Positions 2,529 to 62,639 of a stretch of DNA of 64,000 nucleotides are shown here, one piece after another. The stretch lies in sequence record MT782071.1; one strand, given 5' to 3'. How positions within the stretch are numbered: position 1 is the first letter of the stretch; every line of letters starts with the position of its first letter. The notes under the pieces are model-generated. The model was not told the DNA's origin, made no database searches, and saw only the letters and a program-made list of their open reading frames with translations. Source of the stretch: Escherichia phage JN02. The position numbers were made by a program, and so were the translations under genes.

Positions 2529-3629
2529 TTACGCTGTGAAGATTTTATCCCACATCGCAACAACTGCATCTCGATTATACTTCTTCCATACTGCTTCAGC
2601 ACGTTTAACTCGAGCTTCGTACGTGTCAGTGAATTCTAATACAGCTTTTGTGTAAAGCGCAACTACTTCTTTCTTAGGAGTAGAGGAATCAATTTCTACA
2701 CGCACAGTATCTGGGTCGTATTCGAATGTCGCATGAGGATAATCCTTAAAAACTAACTGGATTACAGGGACACCTTTAGAGATGGCTTCAATAGAACTAT
2801 TCTCTACCGTACCTGTGTCAGGACACGTATTAATAAGTGCTTTAGCTGTTTTAAGACGTTCCATGATTTCACTGTGTGGAGCATCAATAATAACAGGATA
2901 TTTAGCTGGTGGTGCCCATTTACTAGGACAGTATCCTACACCATTTTCGCCTAGTGCTTTAATCGCTTCAAGAGCAACATCAGTGCGACGCATTTTAGTG
3001 TCATAACGTTGTGCACTAATAATCAAATCAGTCGCCGGAAGAACTTCAGGTTTTTCAGTCAAACAAATAACCGGATAATCTTCGGCTTCAAACAACGGAT
3101 TTGCTCGCCAATAATCATAATCAATTTTGTCAGTCAGACCTGAAGTCATATAACAATATTTGCGTTCAAATTCACGGAAGGCTTTAGTGGGAGCATAACT
3201 CTTACCACCATTCTTATGAATTTGAATAGTCTGATCCCAAATTTGAACAATGCCACGAGATACCGGTTCAAATGGTGTTGCCATAAAATTCTTATGAACT
3301 TTAGAGAGACCTGCGTCTTTAATTGCCTGAACGGTTAGTTTAGTCGGTTCCATAGTAACAACAAAATCGTATTCATGGATGCCGGCTAGTTCAACAATCT
3401 TACGAGCCATAGTATAACTCATACCTAGACTGAATTTAGTCAGATGTCCAACAGGGTGGTGTGTAACTTTCCAGTCACCAAACATGTCATTATCAAAACC
3501 GATATAATCAATATCAGCACCAATAGAAACTAAATATTTCAACACATTTAAATGTACTGCTTCAAGGCCACCTTGTACACGGTCAGGATTAAATGGGACT
3601 GCGCGAGATGGGATAAACATAACTTTCAT
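2529..3629 (-). CDS. GT-B fold glycosyltransferase (GT4-like), candidate DNA sugar transferase
   Basis: 366 aa; N-terminal MKVMFIPS...GGLE and C-terminal TGTVENSSIEAISKGVPVI resemble GT4 donor-binding motifs; occupies the T4 gene 60/mobA position. Confidence 0.6.
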   Translation of the reverse strand: MKVMFIPSRAVPFNPDRVQGGLEAVHLNVLKYLVSIGADIDYIGFDNDMFGDWKVTHHPVGHLTKFSLGMSYTMARKIVELAGIHEYDFVVTMEPTKLTVQAIKDAGLSKVHKNFMATPFEPVSRGIVQIWDQTIQIHKNGGKSYAPTKAFREFERKYCYMTSGLTDKIDYDYWRANPLFEAEDYPVICLTEKPEVLPATDLIISAQRYDTKMRRTDVALEAIKALGENGVGYCPSKWAPPAKYPVIIDAPHSEIMERLKTAKALINTCPDTGTVENSSIEAISKGVPVIQLVFKDYPHATFEYDPDTVRVEIDSSTPKKEVVALYTKAVLEFTDTYEARVKRAEAVWKKYNRDAVVAMWDKIFTA

Positions 3630-12167: not shown

Positions 12168-12776
12168 TCAGTAACTGACAATAGACAGATTCCAGATTGT
12201 ATAACGTCCATCTTGAATAATAGAATCTACACGCAGTGTAGTCCCTATAGGGAGCATAAATTCACATTCGTCAGATATAAGTCTAGCATTAGACCGTCTT
12301 GTCGCTTCAGGGAAAGCTCCATTGAACTCACAAGATGGTGCAGCCAGAATCATATTAAGCATATGTTCACGGAAGTTGAAAGCAAATGGTGCATCTTTGA
12401 CGCAGAACATATTAAATGTTCCATAAAAATTATATGAAGCGAAGTTACGTGCTACACCAAACACCGGACTAAAGCTCATTACTCTGTCAAATTTAATAAT
12501 ACTACTAACGCCTTTATCGTCGAGTGTGGCCATAGTTTTCTTAGAGATTCCACGATACATTGTCTCAGGAACAGAAGACGTCCAATTTCTACGAACGATT
12601 GAACTTAACTCCTGTTGAATACAGTCTGGCTTGTTTTCCATACACTGCCAAAGGATGCTTTGTTCATTATCGTTGAATTGACTATCAATTTCGTACTGCA
12701 ATACATCTTGATATTCGGGGTTTTGAGCACGACGAACCATTTCTTCAATTTCACACTCGTTATACGGCATAAACAT
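12168..12776 (-). CDS. modA: ADP-ribosyltransferase, ModA-like
   Basis: 202 aa; YRGI motif; paralogous to adjacent ORF; T4 modA position. Confidence 0.55.
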   Translation of the reverse strand: MFMPYNECEIEEMVRRAQNPEYQDVLQYEIDSQFNDNEQSILWQCMENKPDCIQQELSSIVRRNWTSSVPETMYRGISKKTMATLDDKGVSSIIKFDRVMSFSPVFGVARNFASYNFYGTFNMFCVKDAPFAFNFREHMLNMILAAPSCEFNGAFPEATRRSNARLISDECEFMLPIGTTLRVDSIIQDGRYTIWNLSIVSY

Positions 12777-12833: not shown

Positions 12834-13415
12834 CTAAAAATTCAACATTTTCAAATGAATGATTTTGTATAACCGAGATAAAGGGTCATATTCTAAGTCT
12901 TCAATTTCCACAATCTCAAATCTAGAGATACCTGAGACCATGTACTCTTGTTCAGATTCAATCATATCTAGGACATCGATACGAGTTTCTTCCATAACAT
13001 GCTTAGGGTTCTTTCCGGCAAGTACAATGTTAACCATGTTTTGATAGTAATCAAAAATGAATGGAGCATTCCTGAGACTAAGAATAGTGTACGTCTGATA
13101 TTCCCATCTCCCAGAGAATTGACGAGCTGTACTGAAATCAGTTGTGAACGATGTTACTCGTCCAGGAGACCAATGGCATCCAACAGAAAGAAGAGAAAGA
13201 CGTTCTACTTCTTCTGGAGTTACACCGCGGTAGAGTTCTACTGGTACTGTAGAAGTCATATGCTTACGAACAAGATGGTCTAATTCATAGTGGAAATCCG
13301 GGTCTTCCTTAGAATCGGTGCAAGCCCAGAGAATGTTTTGTTCTTGGCGGGTGAATTTGCTATCAATCAGATTTGTTAGGTATTCACGTTCTTGAAGTTC
13401 AGATTGACATGTCAT
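12834..13415 (-). CDS. modB: ADP-ribosyltransferase, ModB-like
   Basis: 193 aa; shares QEQNILWAC and YRGV motifs with the ModA-like ORF. Confidence 0.55.
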   Translation of the reverse strand: MTCQSELQEREYLTNLIDSKFTRQEQNILWACTDSKEDPDFHYELDHLVRKHMTSTVPVELYRGVTPEEVERLSLLSVGCHWSPGRVTSFTTDFSTARQFSGRWEYQTYTILSLRNAPFIFDYYQNMVNIVLAGKNPKHVMEETRIDVLDMIESEQEYMVSGISRFEIVEIEDLEYDPLSRLYKIIHLKMLNF

Positions 13416-17829: not shown

Positions 17830-18489
17830 TTAACCTCGATTCATAAATGCATTAAATATTTGATCATCAACAGAAATTTCTAATTCGGCTTCAATTGCTT
17901 CAGCCTTTTCTTCAGGTGGTAATTCGTATCCACACACTACAATTTTTTCATCGATATCAAAATATACAGAAGCAATACGATTAATGTTACTTTCAGTTAA
18001 GTCTAAATCAACATCAACATCTTTTTGACCTATACTTAAAGGATAACTAATACGGGTTATTTTATTATCTTTAACAAAGAGTCCACCAACATACTCTGTA
18101 CTACGTTTGAAGTTTACACGTTTCCGAATTGAAAGATATGATACATCTTTACCGTGAGCTCGGCTCATAGGACATAATGAATAACTAGAATAAGAGATGT
18201 CAAATCCTACACCTTCAATATGAGCCAACGTGTCATGAGTAAACCAATTATAATCATATGCCAAATCCATTATATTGTAATATGTGAAAGGCACAGGATT
18301 AACATCATATGTTGTACCTTTAAAATCTGCCCAGGCAACGATTTCGTTATCTTTAACAATTACAAAAATTACACCAATATGATATCCGTTATTATTTTCG
18401 TTCGGCGTTATATTATAACATTGTGCATTAGGAAATTTACCATATTTAAATGGCGCGTTTTTGTGCATATAATAAATCATATTATTCAC
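17830..18489 (-). CDS. hypothetical protein
   Basis: 219-aa ORF. Confidence 0.4.
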   Translation of the reverse strand: MNNMIYYMHKNAPFKYGKFPNAQCYNITPNENNNGYHIGVIFVIVKDNEIVAWADFKGTTYDVNPVPFTYYNIMDLAYDYNWFTHDTLAHIEGVGFDISYSSYSLCPMSRAHGKDVSYLSIRKRVNFKRSTEYVGGLFVKDNKITRISYPLSIGQKDVDVDLDLTESNINRIASVYFDIDEKIVVCGYELPPEEKAEAIEAELEISVDDQIFNAFMNRG

Positions 18490-59240: not shown

Positions 59241-59464
59241 TTAGGTTCACCTTCTTTAACGAAATCTGGGTAAGGGTAAAATCCTGAGTAAAACCCTTCA
59301 CCTTTATGATTGCTACAACCTTTGTTCGAACAGTAACACCAATAATCAAAATCACAAGCCATTTCGTCATTGCATAAAGCAAAAACTACAGGCCATTCGC
59401 ATTTTTCGCATTTAGCACCTGTAAGAATTTTTGTTTGACTCATAGCCATGTCACCTTTAAGCAA
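59237..59464 (-). CDS. Cys-rich small protein
   Basis: 75 aa; CEKCEWP...CYCSNKGC. Confidence 0.35.
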   Translation of the reverse strand: MLKGDMAMSQTKILTGAKCEKCEWPVVFALCNDEMACDFDYWCYCSNKGCSNHKGEGFYSGFYPYPDFVKEGEPK

Positions 59465-59667
59465 TATTCTTCTACATGTTGTTTACGGCCTTTCTTATCA
59501 ATAAAGGTATATTCAACGAATGTTCCGATGTAGTCTTTATCTACATCATGTGGACTATTAATTGGACATTTGGTACGACAAATGCGTTCCCATTGACGAA
59601 TAATTACTGCCTTATTCTTTGGGTCATATGGATGTGGATAATGTATATTCATAATAATGGTTCCCAA
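59440..59667 (-). CDS. hypothetical small protein
   Basis: 75-aa ORF. Confidence 0.3.
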   Translation of the reverse strand: MGTIIMNIHYPHPYDPKNKAVIIRQWERICRTKCPINSPHDVDKDYIGTFVEYTFIDKKGRKQHVEEYCLKVTWL

Positions 59668-60146
59668 TCAACAATCACAATTTCTAGTTTAGTGGAATAC
59701 GTATCTAAAATCTCTTCGATGACATCCCAGTTTCCACCACCAATACCTGCACCAATTCTTGGCATATAAATTACAGGCTTTGTTATCTTATTCTTTCCGA
59801 ATTCATTTAATTCTATTATACAATTCATTAAAGCAGAGTACTCAAAATTAGGTCCCGGCTCAAACTGCGTATAAAGATTAAAGCAATAAGCTTTATGGGT
59901 CTTAAAATATTTTTCATAAACCGAATAAGTCCCGAGTTTAGACTCGTCTCCGAATTCGGTTTGAAGTTTATCAGCTTCCAGAATTTTTGGATAAGCCTTT
60001 GCTAATTGTCCTGCCACACCGGCGCCCATTGTATGAAAACAATTACACCCATGAGCGATATTATTACCTTTAGAAAACAGGGCGACAATATCGCCCTTGA
60101 TATAGTTTTTAATCACTTGCTGCAAGTCCTCTATTATAAGAGTCAA
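59649..60146 (-). CDS. macro-domain protein (ADP-ribose binding/processing)
   Basis: 165 aa; NIAHGCNCFHTMGAGVAGQL resembles the macro-domain glycine-rich ADP-ribose-binding loop. Confidence 0.5.
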   Translation of the reverse strand: MTLIIEDLQQVIKNYIKGDIVALFSKGNNIAHGCNCFHTMGAGVAGQLAKAYPKILEADKLQTEFGDESKLGTYSVYEKYFKTHKAYCFNLYTQFEPGPNFEYSALMNCIIELNEFGKNKITKPVIYMPRIGAGIGGGNWDVIEEILDTYSTKLEIVIVDWEPLL

Positions 60147-60456
60147 CTAGACGGTCCACCATAGAATTGCATGCTGCCTTATCTTTAGGTTCCGCCACCG
60201 AGCATTCTAATATTTGCCATTTTTTATAGTATCTTTTAATTAAGGTAGACGCCTTGAACCTACTAGACGCCCCATCTTTTTCTCCGTCTTTATACGCATA
60301 TAACAATTTTTGTGAAAAATCTACTTTACACTCTTGACTTTGACCACAATAATCAGACGCCGTTCTGTTTGTATACTCCGTTATATCAGTGTATGTAGTA
60401 TTAGCAAGAGCGTTAAATGAAACCAAGCCAACTATTAAAGCCAACATTTTGGTCAT
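60109..60456 (-). CDS. secreted small protein
   Basis: 115 aa; signal peptide MTKMLALIVGLVSFNALA, several Cys. Confidence 0.4.
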   Translation of the reverse strand: MTKMLALIVGLVSFNALANTTYTDITEYTNRTASDYCGQSQECKVDFSQKLLYAYKDGEKDGASSRFKASTLIKRYYKKWQILECSVAEPKDKAACNSMVDRLVDSYNRGLAASD

Positions 60457-60995
60457 TCTTTTATTTCCAGTAGTTTATTTGATTTAAGGTAATTGGCCTT
60501 TTCTAGGACTTCAGAAGCATATTTACTTCCAGCACTTGTCTTCCATCCCGCATTATATGAGGATATAGCTTTTCTTATATCCCCATTATGTATATTTAAC
60601 CAATAAGAAAATTCGATATAAGCCCATCTAGCTGAATTAGACCGCTTAGATAGCATTTTCTTAATTTGGGCATCAGTCATATTATAACCAAGCTGGTTAA
60701 TTCGTGCCCTCATTGTTGGTAGATAATTTTGGAACATTCCATACGCATGGTGACCTTTCTTATCTTTAAGATTAATACCGGCAGATGATTCCTGCCATAG
60801 TATTGCGGCCATTATGTACCCAAGTCCTTTCTTATGCATATTTTCATGCGTTTTAAATTTTCCGTCCTTAGAAAACTGTTCCCCAAACTGATAAGCATAA
60901 TTCAAGTTATCGAGTTGGACATTACTAAAAGTATGCTCGGAGCTATGTGCTGATAATGAAAGAGCAAATAGACCAGCGAGTAGTGCTTTTCTCAT
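60453..60995 (-). CDS. periplasmic lytic transglycosylase-like protein (SLT domain)
   Basis: 180 aa; signal peptide; ILWQESS...YGMFQ resembles the SLT catalytic-Glu motif. Confidence 0.5.
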   Translation of the reverse strand: MRKALLAGLFALSLSAHSSEHTFSNVQLDNLNYAYQFGEQFSKDGKFKTHENMHKKGLGYIMAAILWQESSAGINLKDKKGHHAYGMFQNYLPTMRARINQLGYNMTDAQIKKMLSKRSNSARWAYIEFSYWLNIHNGDIRKAISSYNAGWKTSAGSKYASEVLEKANYLKSNKLLEIKE

Positions 60996-62231: not shown

Positions 62232-62277
62232 AACATTTTAAAACATCTTCAGACCCTTCTATAATCAATTTAGCCAT
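62053..62277 (-). CDS. hypothetical acidic protein
   Basis: 74-aa ORF. Confidence 0.35.
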   Translation of the reverse strand: MAKLIIEGSEDVLKCFAAWFSCSGEQSFIEAFRTGDITGKYPSTDITVRGYGINEPIQLVEYDLATDEEIPYVD

Positions 62278-62639
62278 TATAGACTCTCAGTAAAGGTACG
62301 AGCGATAACGTCGCGTTGCTGTTCCGGAGTCAGAGAGTTAAAGCGAACTGCATAACCGGATACACGGATGGTCAGCTGCGGATATTTTTCTGGATGCTTA
62401 ACTGCATCTTCCAGAGTTTCGCGACGCAGAACGTTAACGTTCAGGTGTTGACCGCCTTCAATTTTAACTTTAGGTTGATGTTCAATTTCAATTTCACGGG
62501 CATTCAAACCGTAGAAAATTTCTGGGTCTACAATAGCGTCTTCTTTAAAAGTCTTAGAGACAATAATCCGGGCTTGAGTACCGTCTTCAAAATAAATAGT
62601 GCCTTTATGTGCACCTTCAAGAATTTGATATACTTTCAT
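62277..62639 (-). CDS. glycyl-radical cofactor protein (GrcA/YfiD-like)
   Basis: 120 aa; C-terminal [25 protein letters not shown] is the pyruvate formate-lyase type glycyl radical signature. Confidence 0.6.

What the first reader, a model, noticed from the sequence alone, without database searches (positions are those of the whole stretch)
59649..60146. Macro-domain protein next to the tk cluster
A 165-aa ORF has a macro-domain-like glycine-rich loop (GCNCFHTMGAGVAG). Macro domains bind or hydrolyse ADP-ribose derivatives. In a phage that also encodes ModA/ModB ADP-ribosyltransferases, this could reverse or edit ADP-ribosylation, or degrade ADP-ribose-derived signalling molecules used by host defenses.
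Basis: partly seen in the sequence, partly recalled or inferred. Interest (0 to 1): 0.5.

Follow-up and report, generated by a model that had tools for sequence, protein, structure and literature searches.

The report
T-even phage macrodomain Tk.4 (AdfM)
This gene is the counterpart of phage T4 gene tk.4 (adfM), a small ADP-ribose-removing "macrodomain" enzyme that was recently shown genetically to protect T4 from the bacterial DarTG2 defence, so the finding is real but already explained.

Summary
The ORF is real and it is a macrodomain. Pfam Macro scores above its curated cut-off. The AlphaFold2 model has pLDDT 95.6, and its best PDB matches are TARG1, Poa1p, BT1257, DarG and SCO6735. The true CDS is probably 155 aa, not 165: GTG at 60116 to the stop at 59649.

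The window is a Mosigvirus-like T-even phage. The gene is the syntenic orthologue of T4 tk.4: order vs-tk.4-tk.3-tk.2-tk.1-tk, 129 of 154 residues identical, no gaps. Close relatives already annotate it as "macro domain protein".

A 2025 preprint (HIDEN-SEQ) found tk.4 to be the single T4 gene needed on a DarTG2 host and named it adfM. The most likely mechanism is removal of DarT2-added ADP-ribose from thymidine in phage single-stranded DNA.

One detail I did not find stated in the papers I read. The catalytic lysine of DarG (K80), TARG1 (K84) and phiKZ AdfM is an invariant glutamine here (261 of 261 relatives). SCO6735, a proven thymidine-ADP-ribose hydrolase, has the same substitution.

Reversal of ModA/ModB marks and degradation of signalling molecules are not supported. 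Low novelty.

The parts
59649..60116 (-). Most likely CDS of the tk.4/adfM orthologue: 155 aa, GTG start, TGA stop, a single macro domain.
   Evidence: Relatives annotate 468 nt as 'macro domain protein'. T4 Tk.4 starts at the equivalent codon. 129 of 154 residues are identical to T4 Tk.4 with no gaps. Pfam Macro. AF2 pLDDT 95.6.
60117..60146 (-). Ten-codon upstream extension of the maximal ORF (TTG start). It is probably not translated and lies inside the 3' end of vs.
   Evidence: In T4 the equivalent frame carries a TAG immediately before the ATG. tblastn to T4 and most relatives covers only residues 11-165.
60127..60131 (-). Shine-Dalgarno-like GAGGA, 10 nt upstream of the GTG start. It is conserved in T4 (CGAGGA).
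   Evidence: Read directly from the sequence.
60009..60053 (-). First ADP-ribose-binding loop, H22-G-C-N25-C-F-H-T-M-G-A-G-V-A-G36 (155-aa numbering). N25 aligns with TaqDarG N22 and phiKZ AdfM N23.
   Evidence: Alignments. DarG N22A and phiKZ N23A reduce activity. Family conservation: N25 259/261, C26 260/261, H22 251/261, G33 260/261.
59865..59879 (-). Motif N80-L-Y-T-Q84. Q84 occupies the position of the catalytic Lys of TARG1 (K84), DarG (K80) and phiKZ AdfM, and of Gln85 of SCO6735.
   Evidence: Profile and MAFFT alignments. Q84 261/261, Y82 261/261, N80 260/261. SCO6735 Q85A/E is inactive.
59727..59762 (-). Second glycine-rich (diphosphate-binding) loop, P119-R-I-G-A-G-I-G-G-G-N-W130. 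G126 sits where TARG1 has D125.
   Evidence: Alignments. DarG G117/G119/G121 contact ADP-ribose. G122 and G124 are each 259/261.
60109..60456 (-). Upstream neighbour vs (valyl-tRNA synthetase modifier). Its stop overlaps the tk.4 start by 8 nt (GTGATTAA).
   Evidence: PHROG 1256, 1.7e-35. Sequence read. T4 annotation.
59440..59652 (-). Downstream neighbour tk.3 (DUF7202). Its ATG at 59652 overlaps the tk.4 stop (ATGA), which suggests translational coupling within a tightly packed gene run.
   Evidence: Pfam DUF7202, 2e-38. Sequence read. Relatives annotate 213 nt with a 4-nt overlap.

Best explanation
The gene is the orthologue of T4 tk.4, renamed adfM (anti-DarT factor, macrodomain). It encodes a free-standing 155-aa macrodomain of the ALC1-like class (TARG1/DarG/SCO6735).

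Proposed mechanism. When the phage infects a cell carrying the DarTG2 toxin-antitoxin defence, the DarT2 toxin ADP-ribosylates thymidines in single-stranded phage DNA, which blocks replication. The phage macrodomain binds the ADP-ribose-thymidine adduct and hydrolyses the N-glycosidic bond, releasing ADP-ribose and restoring the base. It acts as an 'orphan antitoxin' that needs no contact with the toxin.

Chemistry. It probably follows the SCO6735 model rather than the DarG/TARG1 model. The position of the catalytic lysine holds an invariant glutamine, which would position the substrate for water-mediated cleavage.

What is shown and what is inferred.
- Shown here: the fold, the orthology, an intact ADP-ribose pocket, and Gln in place of Lys.
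- Shown by others on the 84%-identical T4 protein: it is genetically required against DarTG2.
- Inferred: enzymatic removal of thymidine-linked ADP-ribose by this protein, and the Gln-dependent mechanism.
For: Fold:
- Pfam Macro above the gathering score.
- AF2 pLDDT 95.6.
- Foldseek PDB matches TARG1, Poa1p, BT1257, DarG and SCO6735, all at probability 1.0, TM 0.67-0.81.

Orthology:
- Gene order regB-vs.1-vs-tk.4-tk.3-tk.2-tk.1-tk, as in T4.
- 129 of 154 residues identical to T4 Tk.4, no gaps, every signature residue the same.

Function of the orthologue:
- tk.4 was the single significant hit of a T4 transposon library on a DarTG2 host, and a clean knockout sensitised T4 to DarTG2 (bioRxiv 10.1101/2025.11.20.689424).

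Plausibility of the chemistry:
- The only NCBIfam and PADLOC hits are to DarG, macro part only.
- The residues that contact ADP-ribose in TaqDarG have conserved counterparts: N8/D9, N22/N25, V31/V34, Q34/Q37, T79/T83, G117/G122, G119/G124, G121/G126.
- phiKZ AdfM, a distant relative (hhalign probability 96%), removes DarT2-added ADP-ribose from DNA in vitro.
- SCO6735 has Gln at the catalytic position, removes thymidine-linked ADP-ribose faster than DarG or TARG1, rescues DarT toxicity, and is dead as Q85A/E.
- Q84 is invariant in 261 of 261 relatives.
- One relative fuses this macro type to a NADAR domain, the guanosine-ADP-ribose eraser fold of AdfN.
Against: - I found no biochemical test of T4 Tk.4 or any close relative in the library. 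The preprint itself only says enzymatic removal 'seems likely'.
- The genetic evidence is one preprint, on T4, with one DarTG2 system at 30 C in minimal medium. The protein here differs at 25 positions.
- It lacks the DarG/TARG1 catalytic lysine.
- It also lacks the 5-residue-longer 'mobile loop' and the K34/K89 residues that the SCO6735 study linked to DNA activity. The SCO6735 mechanism therefore cannot simply be transferred.
- SCO6735 also inhibits DarT by direct interaction, so protection without hydrolysis is conceivable.
- Family-specific invariants (D49, Y82, C26) have no assigned role.
Confidence: 0.75

Rival explanations
1. A Poa1p-like ADP-ribose-1''-phosphate phosphatase, the source of the 'phosphatase' annotation. 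It would clear a small-molecule by-product of RNA repair or splicing rather than act on DNA.
For: - PHROG 335 is labelled 'phosphatase', and several GenBank records use that name.
- Yeast Poa1p is among the best sequence and fold matches: 1.5e-8 and TMq up to 0.81.
- The H-x-C-N-C motif is shared almost literally with Poa1p (IHSCNCNGSWGGG versus AHGCNCFHTMGAG).
- Poa1p also has Asp at the family-invariant D49 position.
- PDB entries exist for Poa1p H23A and S30A mutants. These align with H22 and T29 here (titles; alignment).
Against: - ADP-ribose-1''-phosphate comes from the Tpt1/KptA 2'-phosphotransferase route. T4-type tRNA repair (Pnk plus Rnl1) does not use that route (established knowledge), and no KptA was seen next to the gene.
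- This role does not explain the DarTG2-specific phenotype of T4 tk.4.
- Many macrodomains show weak Appr-1''-pase activity in vitro without it being their role (established knowledge).
Confidence: 0.08
2. One reading: the macrodomain reverses or edits ADP-ribosylation (or RNAylation) placed by the phage's own Alt/ModA/ModB enzymes on host proteins.
For: - Two Mod-like ADP-ribosyltransferase ORFs are in the same window.
- An arginine-specific macrodomain exists (Legionella MavL; PMC10951314, title seen), so the chemistry is not impossible for the fold.
Against: - The nearest characterised relatives act on Glu/Asp esters and thymidine adducts, not arginine.
- The gene is about 46 kb from the mod genes and is not co-located with them.
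- T4 tk.4 was picked up as conditionally essential only with DarTG2.
- No evidence for this role was found in any paper searched.
Confidence: 0.04
3. The first reader's idea, part 2, also predicted by comparative genomics: it degrades soluble ADP-ribose-derived immune signals or by-products (for example Thoeris-type cyclic ADPR isomers or His-ADPR), possibly in addition to DNA repair.
For: - Iyer et al. 2022 argued that phage Macro, NADAR, Nudix and DUF4326 domains co-occur and process diffusible ADPr derivatives.
- Relatives of this macro type are fused to NUDIX (P0242) and to DUF4326 (P0206, P0250).
- One fusion protein also gives a weak ThsA_Macro Pfam hit.
Against: - There is no experimental link.
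- The NADAR partner in these predictions turned out to be a DNA guanosine-ADP-ribose eraser (AdfN). This weakens the soluble-signal reading for the whole set.
- The one phenotype known for tk.4 is against a DNA-modifying system.
Confidence: 0.08
4. Non-catalytic protection: the protein binds DarT2 or the ADP-ribosylated DNA and blocks the toxin without hydrolysing the adduct.
For: - It lacks the DarG/TARG1 catalytic lysine.
- Catalytically dead SCO6735 Q85A still inhibits DarT in vitro.
- Other anti-DarT factors (AdfA, AdfB) appear to act by binding.
Against: - Absolute conservation of active-site positions (Q84, N25, Y82, D49, glycine loops) over 261 diverse relatives is what an enzyme shows, not a toxin-specific binder.
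- It has no counterpart of DarG's C-terminal DarT-binding domain.
- TaqDarG-macro K80A alone did not inhibit DarT.
Confidence: 0.05

Closest known systems
T4 Tk.4 = AdfM (anti-DarT factor, macrodomain), bioRxiv 10.1101/2025.11.20.689424
   Same: Same gene in the same place (vs-tk.4-tk.3). Same length (155 aa). 84% identical without gaps, with all conserved motifs identical.
   Different: 25 substitutions. GTG start instead of ATG, and an 8-nt rather than 4-nt overlap with vs. The host phage is Mosigvirus-like rather than Tequatrovirus. Protection against DarTG2 has not been tested for this allele.
DarG antitoxin macrodomain of DarTG2 (PDB 5M31/5M3E/5M3I; NCBIfam NF048014)
   Same: Same fold and ADP-ribose pocket (TM 0.74). 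It is the only NCBIfam and PADLOC hit. The Asn (N22/N25) and Thr (T79/T83) are conserved.
   Different: About 20% identity. No C-terminal DarT-binding domain. Scores 31.9 bits against a cut-off of 250. The catalytic Lys80 is replaced by Gln84. Not encoded next to a darT gene.
SCO6735 of Streptomyces coelicolor (PDB 5E3B) and BT1257 (PDB 2FG1)
   Same: Free-standing ALC1-like macrodomains with Gln at the catalytic-lysine position (Q85/Q84) and a His and Asn in loop 1. BT1257 is the best PDB sequence match. SCO6735 removes thymidine-linked ADP-ribose and rescues DarT toxicity.
   Different: 22-28% identity. The phage family lacks the 5-residue-longer mobile loop and the K34/K89 residues. It has its own invariants: D49, Y82, C26.
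phiKZ gp104 AdfM (Cell Rep 2026, PMC13309987)
   Same: A phage-encoded single macrodomain that counters DarTG2, with in vitro DNA de-ADP-ribosylation shown. The conserved Asn (N23) equals N25 here.
   Different: Only about 20% identical. It belongs to the DarG-like, Lys-containing branch (FPTKDNW) and is imported into the phage nucleus. The two 'AdfM' proteins are probably independent recruitments of different macrodomain subgroups.
Human TARG1/OARD1 (PDB 4J5R/4J5S)
   Same: Top Foldseek match. Profile E=3.7e-16. Same loop lengths around the catalytic position. TARG1 also removes thymidine-linked ADP-ribose.
   Different: The K84/D125 dyad is absent here (Q84/G126).
Yeast Poa1p, ADP-ribose-1''-phosphate phosphatase (PDB 6LFQ-6LFU)
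   Same: Highest TM score (up to 0.81). Shares the H-x-C-N-C...G-x-G motif and the Asp at position 49.
   Different: Poa1p acts on a small-molecule phosphate ester. Its residue at the Q84 position could not be placed: the pairwise alignment puts Ser there, while the profile alignment of the N-terminal fragment ends at Thr83. No link to a Tpt1/KptA pathway is seen here.

Membership tests
Macro domain (Pfam PF01661) | Profile score above the curated gathering score over most of the domain | tested here: met
   28.1 bits against 22, profile positions 2-117 of 118.
Macro domain (Pfam PF01661) | Three-layer alpha/beta/alpha fold with a central mixed sheet | tested here: met
   AF2 model pLDDT 95.6, pTM 0.91, with six or seven strands and five helices. 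123 PDB matches at E<=0.001, and all 50 listed are macrodomain structures or enzymes designed on that fold.
Macro domain (Pfam PF01661) | Two glycine-rich loops lining the ADP-ribose cleft, plus a conserved Asn and an N-terminal Asp/Asn for adenine | tested here: met
   N25, G31-x-G33, G122-x-G124-x-G126 and D9 align with the ADP-ribose-contacting residues of TaqDarG. All are conserved across the family.
Macro domain (Pfam PF01661) | Binds ADP-ribose | not testable with these tools
   Needs ITC, thermal shift or a co-crystal.
T4 Tk.4 / AdfM orthologous group | Full-length high identity and conserved position between vs and tk.3 | tested here: met
   129 of 154 identical, no gaps. Gene order as in T4.
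T4 Tk.4 / AdfM orthologous group | Required for phage growth on DarTG2-carrying hosts | not testable with these tools
   Shown only for T4 itself.
DarG antitoxin (NCBIfam NF048014 equivalog) | Score at or above the equivalog cut-off | tested here: not met
   31.9 bits against 250.
DarG antitoxin (NCBIfam NF048014 equivalog) | C-terminal DarT-binding domain after the macrodomain | tested here: not met
   The protein is 155 aa and matches only profile positions 4-146 of 338 and 4-145 of 329.
DarG antitoxin (NCBIfam NF048014 equivalog) | Catalytic lysine (TaqDarG K80) | tested here: not met
   Gln84 at that column in three independent alignments.
DarG antitoxin (NCBIfam NF048014 equivalog) | Encoded next to a darT toxin gene | tested here: not met
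   The neighbours are vs and tk.3 (DUF7202).
TARG1-type hydrolases | Lys84/Asp125 catalytic dyad | tested here: not met
   Q84 and G126 at the aligned positions.
SCO6735/BT1257-type (Gln-type) ALC1-like macrodomains | Essential Gln at the catalytic-lysine position | tested here: met
   Q84 aligns with SCO6735 Q85 and is invariant in 261 of 261 relatives. That it is essential is shown only for SCO6735.
SCO6735/BT1257-type (Gln-type) ALC1-like macrodomains | Mobile loop five residues longer than in TARG1/DarG | tested here: not met
   The Q84-to-Y93 spacing equals that of TARG1. SCO6735 and BT1257 carry 5-6 extra residues (the definition is).
Poa1p-type ADP-ribose-1''-phosphate phosphatase | Sequence and fold similarity, including the His and Ser/Thr of loop 1 | tested here: inconclusive
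   E=1.5e-8, TM up to 0.81, H22 and T29 aligned. These residues are also shared with non-phosphatase relatives, and the Poa1p paper could not be read.
Poa1p-type ADP-ribose-1''-phosphate phosphatase | Phosphatase activity on Appr-1''-p | not testable with these tools
   Needs an enzyme assay.

The most novel reading that the evidence does not exclude
The T-even Tk.4/AdfM family would be a third mechanistic subgroup of thymidine-ADP-ribose erasers. It combines Gln at the catalytic position (as in SCO6735) with the short loops of TARG1/DarG, and adds its own invariant Asp49, Tyr82 and Cys26.

It would have been recruited by phages independently of the Lys-type phiKZ 'AdfM'. Its substrate range may go beyond DarT2 adducts, for example to other nucleic-acid ADP-ribose linkages or soluble ADPr derivatives. 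That is hinted at by fusions to NADAR, DUF4326 and NUDIX.
Probability: 0.25. Interest if true: 0.45.

Novelty: already known. Interest (0 to 1): 0.2.

Why it matters
For genome annotation, the practical outcome is a better name. This gene, and thousands of PHROG 335 'phosphatase' or 'hypothetical' entries in T4-like phages, should be read as tk.4/adfM: a macrodomain ADP-ribosylhydrolase and anti-DarTG2 factor by orthology.

For the field, the modest point of interest is mechanistic. The T-even AdfM does not carry the lysine that defines DarG/TARG1 catalysis. It carries an invariant glutamine, as SCO6735 does. The two phage proteins now both called AdfM (T4 and phiKZ) therefore belong to different macrodomain branches and probably use different chemistry.

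That matters for choosing inactive-mutant controls: Q84 or N25, not a lysine. It also matters for judging how broadly such erasers protect phages used in therapy against ADP-ribosylating defences.

Tried and rejected
- **The 165-aa reading from TTG at 60146.** Rejected in favour of GTG at 60116, because T4 has a stop codon in that upstream frame and relatives annotate 155 aa.
- **Filing the protein as a DarG family member.** Rejected. It is far below the equivalog cut-off, has no C-terminal domain, no catalytic lysine and no darT neighbour.
- **Transferring the TARG1 Lys/Asp mechanism.** Rejected. Both residues are absent.
- **A general RNA-ADP-ribose eraser.** Unlikely. CmdTAC, which ADP-ribosylates mRNA, still defends strongly against wild-type T4, which carries tk.4. 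This is an inference, not a test.
- **A regulatory hairpin at codons 7-13** (AGGGCGATATTGTCGCCCT, 60079-60097; also flagged as terminator-like). In a 91-nt context the fold is only z=-1.76 against shuffles. The sequence is coding and conserved as protein, so I did not pursue it.
- **Sigma-70 promoter scan around the gene.** It gave fewer sites than shuffled sequence (10 against 12.9) and was uninformative.
- **Literature searches for a biochemical assay of T4 Tk.4.** Nothing beyond the HIDEN-SEQ genetics.
- **The Poa1p structural paper.** Not in the library.
- **Residue distances in the AF2 model.** I could not measure them, for example whether D49 faces the active site, because model coordinates are not exposed to the scripting tool.
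Full report
**1. The observation**

The ORF listing returns a 165-aa ORF at 59649..60146 on the minus strand, starting at TTG. It contains the quoted GCNCFHTMGAGVAG.

It is not a chance motif:
- Pfam Macro (PF01661) matches nearly end to end at 28.1 bits, above the curated 22-bit cut-off.
- PHROG 335 matches at 7.7e-67.
- phmmer against PDB sequences finds macrodomains only: BT1257 at 6e-11, yeast Poa1p at 1.5e-8, and SCO6735, TARG1 and DarG between 1e-5 and 1e-3.

**2. The true gene boundaries**

The window is 97-99% identical at the DNA level to Mosigvirus-type T-even phages such as O157 typing phage 3 and Shigella phage JK42. Those records annotate a 468-nt 'macro domain protein'. That corresponds to a start at the GTG at window 60116.

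The T4 sequence has ATG at exactly this position, the same GAGGA ten or eleven bases upstream, and a TAG in frame immediately before it. The ten extra codons of the maximal ORF are therefore not conserved coding sequence.

The CDS is most likely 59649..60116 (155 aa). Its start overlaps the stop of vs (GTGATTAA), and its stop overlaps the start of tk.3 (ATGA). The gene sits in a tightly packed, probably translationally coupled run: regB - vs.1 - vs - tk.4 - tk.3 - tk.2 - tk.1 - tk. That is the T4 order.

**3. Identity**

The protein is 129/154 identical to T4 Tk.4, without gaps. tblastn finds relatives in 2,799 phage records. They are annotated variously as hypothetical protein, phosphatase, macro domain protein, O-acetyl-ADP-ribose deacetylase or Tk.4.

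**4. Fold**

An AlphaFold2 model built on 61 homologues has mean pLDDT 95.6 and pTM 0.91. Foldseek against the PDB returns TARG1, Poa1p, BT1257, T. aquaticus and M. tuberculosis DarG, the T. africanus DarTG fusion and SCO6735. All are at probability 1.0 with TM 0.67-0.81. Viral and archaeal macrodomains follow.

**5. What is known about the orthologue**

A bioRxiv preprint of November 2025 (10.1101/2025.11.20.689424) screened a T4 transposon library on E. coli carrying DarTG2.
- tk.4 was the single significant hit.
- A clean deletion made T4 sensitive to DarTG2.
- The authors renamed the gene adfM and suggested it removes ADP-ribose from DNA, by analogy with DarG and with the NADAR protein AdfN. 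AdfN (T4 30.3) does this for DarTG1.

DarT2 ADP-ribosylates thymidine in single-stranded DNA, at the second T of a TNTC motif. DarG's macrodomain reverses this.

A separate 2026 paper gave the same name, AdfM, to phiKZ gp104. It showed in vitro removal of DarT2-added ADP-ribose, reduced by N23A.

I found no biochemical assay of T4 Tk.4 or a close relative.

**6. How it probably works**

The TaqDarG residues that contact ADP-ribose are listed. In the alignments they have conserved counterparts here:

| TaqDarG | This protein |
|---|---|
| N8 | D9 |
| N22 | N25 |
| V31 | V34 |
| Q34 | Q37 |
| T79 | T83 |
| G117 / G119 / G121 | G122 / G124 / G126 |

The binding pocket is therefore intact.

The catalytic residue differs. 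TARG1 K84, TaqDarG K80, MtbDarG and phiKZ gp104 all have Lys after the conserved Thr (ITK, PTK). This protein and T4 Tk.4 have Gln84 (YTQ). TARG1 D125 corresponds to Gly126. Three alignments agree on this: the profile against PDB, MAFFT and hmmalign.

K80A and K84A kill DarG and TARG1. So the lysine mechanism cannot apply here.

SCO6735 and BT1257 also have Gln at this position. For SCO6735 this is documented (PMC9411070):
- Gln85 is structurally equivalent to K80/K84.
- Q85A and Q85E are inactive.
- It rescues E. coli from DarT.
- A water-mediated mechanism was proposed, with Gln positioning the substrate.

A Gln-type macrodomain is thus a proven thymidine-ADP-ribose hydrolase. This makes the enzymatic reading of Tk.4 credible despite the missing lysine.

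**7. Family-wide conservation**

A profile search of 1.84 billion representatives finds 18,089 relatives at E<=1e-3 and 1,172 at E<=1e-30. In 261 collected members:
- Q84, D49 and Y82 are invariant (261/261).
- C26 and N80 are each 260/261, and N25 is 259/261.
- H22 is 251/261 (Gln in 9 of the other 10).

This pattern is that of an enzyme active site.

The family differs from SCO6735/BT1257. It lacks their longer mobile loop and the K34/K89 residues. D49, Y82 and C26 are its own, although Poa1p shares the Asp.

**8. Fusions**

Among the longer relatives:
- One carries this macro type followed by NADAR and DUF4326.
- One carries DUF4326 plus Macro.
- One carries Macro plus NUDIX.

Macro-NADAR in one chain would combine the thymidine-eraser and guanosine-eraser folds. 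This fits a DNA de-ADP-ribosylation role. It also fits the older prediction that these domains process soluble ADP-ribose derivatives.

**9. Rivals**

- **Appr-1''-p phosphatase.** The 'phosphatase' label comes from Poa1p-type activity. The similarity is real, but no Tpt1/KptA context exists and it does not explain the DarTG2 phenotype.
- **Reversal of ModA/ModB marks.** This is chemically unlikely for this macrodomain class. Those marks are arginine-linked (established knowledge), whereas the class acts on esters and thymidine. The Mod-like genes lie about 46 kb away.
- **Degradation of immune signals.** Untested.
- **A purely binding mode.** Conceivable, because dead SCO6735 inhibits DarT. 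It is disfavoured by the invariant active-site positions and by the absence of a DarT-binding domain.
- **A general RNA-ADP-ribose eraser.** CmdTAC, an mRNA ADP-ribosyltransferase defence, still blocks wild-type T4. This argues against that role.

**10. Membership**

The protein is a member of the macro domain superfamily and of the Tk.4/AdfM orthologous group. It is not a member of the DarG equivalog family: 31.9 against 250 bits, no C-terminal domain, no Lys, no darT neighbour. It works like DarG in outcome, but probably like SCO6735 in chemistry.

**11. Verdict**

The finding is real, correctly recognised as a macrodomain, and already explained by orthology to T4 tk.4/adfM. The only addition here is the note that the T-even AdfM is a Gln-type enzyme, distinct from the Lys-type phiKZ AdfM and from DarG. 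Novelty is 'already known' and interest is low (0.2). Confidence in the anti-DarTG2 hydrolase explanation is 0.75. The remainder is spread over a Poa1p-like phosphatase role, signal degradation, non-catalytic inhibition and Mod-mark reversal.

Noticed in passing
window 12168-12776 and 12834-13415 (- strand): Two adjacent Mod-like ADP-ribosyltransferase ORFs (202 and 193 aa), only 30-38% identical to T4 ModA/ModB. The neighbouring srd is 68% identical. These enzymes have diverged much faster than their surroundings.
   Followed up: partly
window 17830-18489 (- strand): Homologue of T4 gp61.2 (AdfA, the anti-DarTG1 factor), 65% identical. The same window therefore carries a second anti-DarT gene. 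Whether this allele is the active or the inactive (RB69-like) form was not examined.
   Followed up: partly
protein P0250 (472 aa), P0206 (302 aa), P0242 (247 aa): Relatives of the Tk.4-type macrodomain occur as fusions: Macro + NADAR + DUF4326, DUF4326 + Macro, and Macro + NUDIX. The Macro-NADAR fusion would combine the AdfM-like and AdfN-like eraser folds in one chain.
   Followed up: partly
window 60079-60097 (- strand); T4 locus L001 about 3020-3040: A perfect 8-bp stem with a 3-nt loop (AGGGCGAT-ATT-GTCGCCCT) lies at codons 7-13 of tk.4. It is conserved in T4 and was flagged as terminator-like. The 91-nt context folds only marginally better than shuffles (z=-1.76).
   Followed up: partly
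window 60453-60995 (- strand): The vs.1 homologue (180 aa) has a signal-peptide-like N-terminus. It gives a sub-threshold match to the SLT lytic transglycosylase domain (18.8 bits against 21.3, E=1.3e-3). PHROG 600 has no assigned function, and some GenBank records mislabel it as RegB endoribonuclease.
   Followed up: no
window 62277-62639 (- strand): A 120-aa ORF at the position that close relatives annotate as 'autonomous glycyl radical cofactor GrcA'. This is the T4 vs.6 position.
   Followed up: no
Tk.4 family alignment: Asp49, Tyr82 and Cys26 are invariant or nearly so in 261 relatives. They are absent from DarG, TARG1 and SCO6735, and Asp49 is shared only with yeast Poa1p. No role is assigned to them.
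   Followed up: partly
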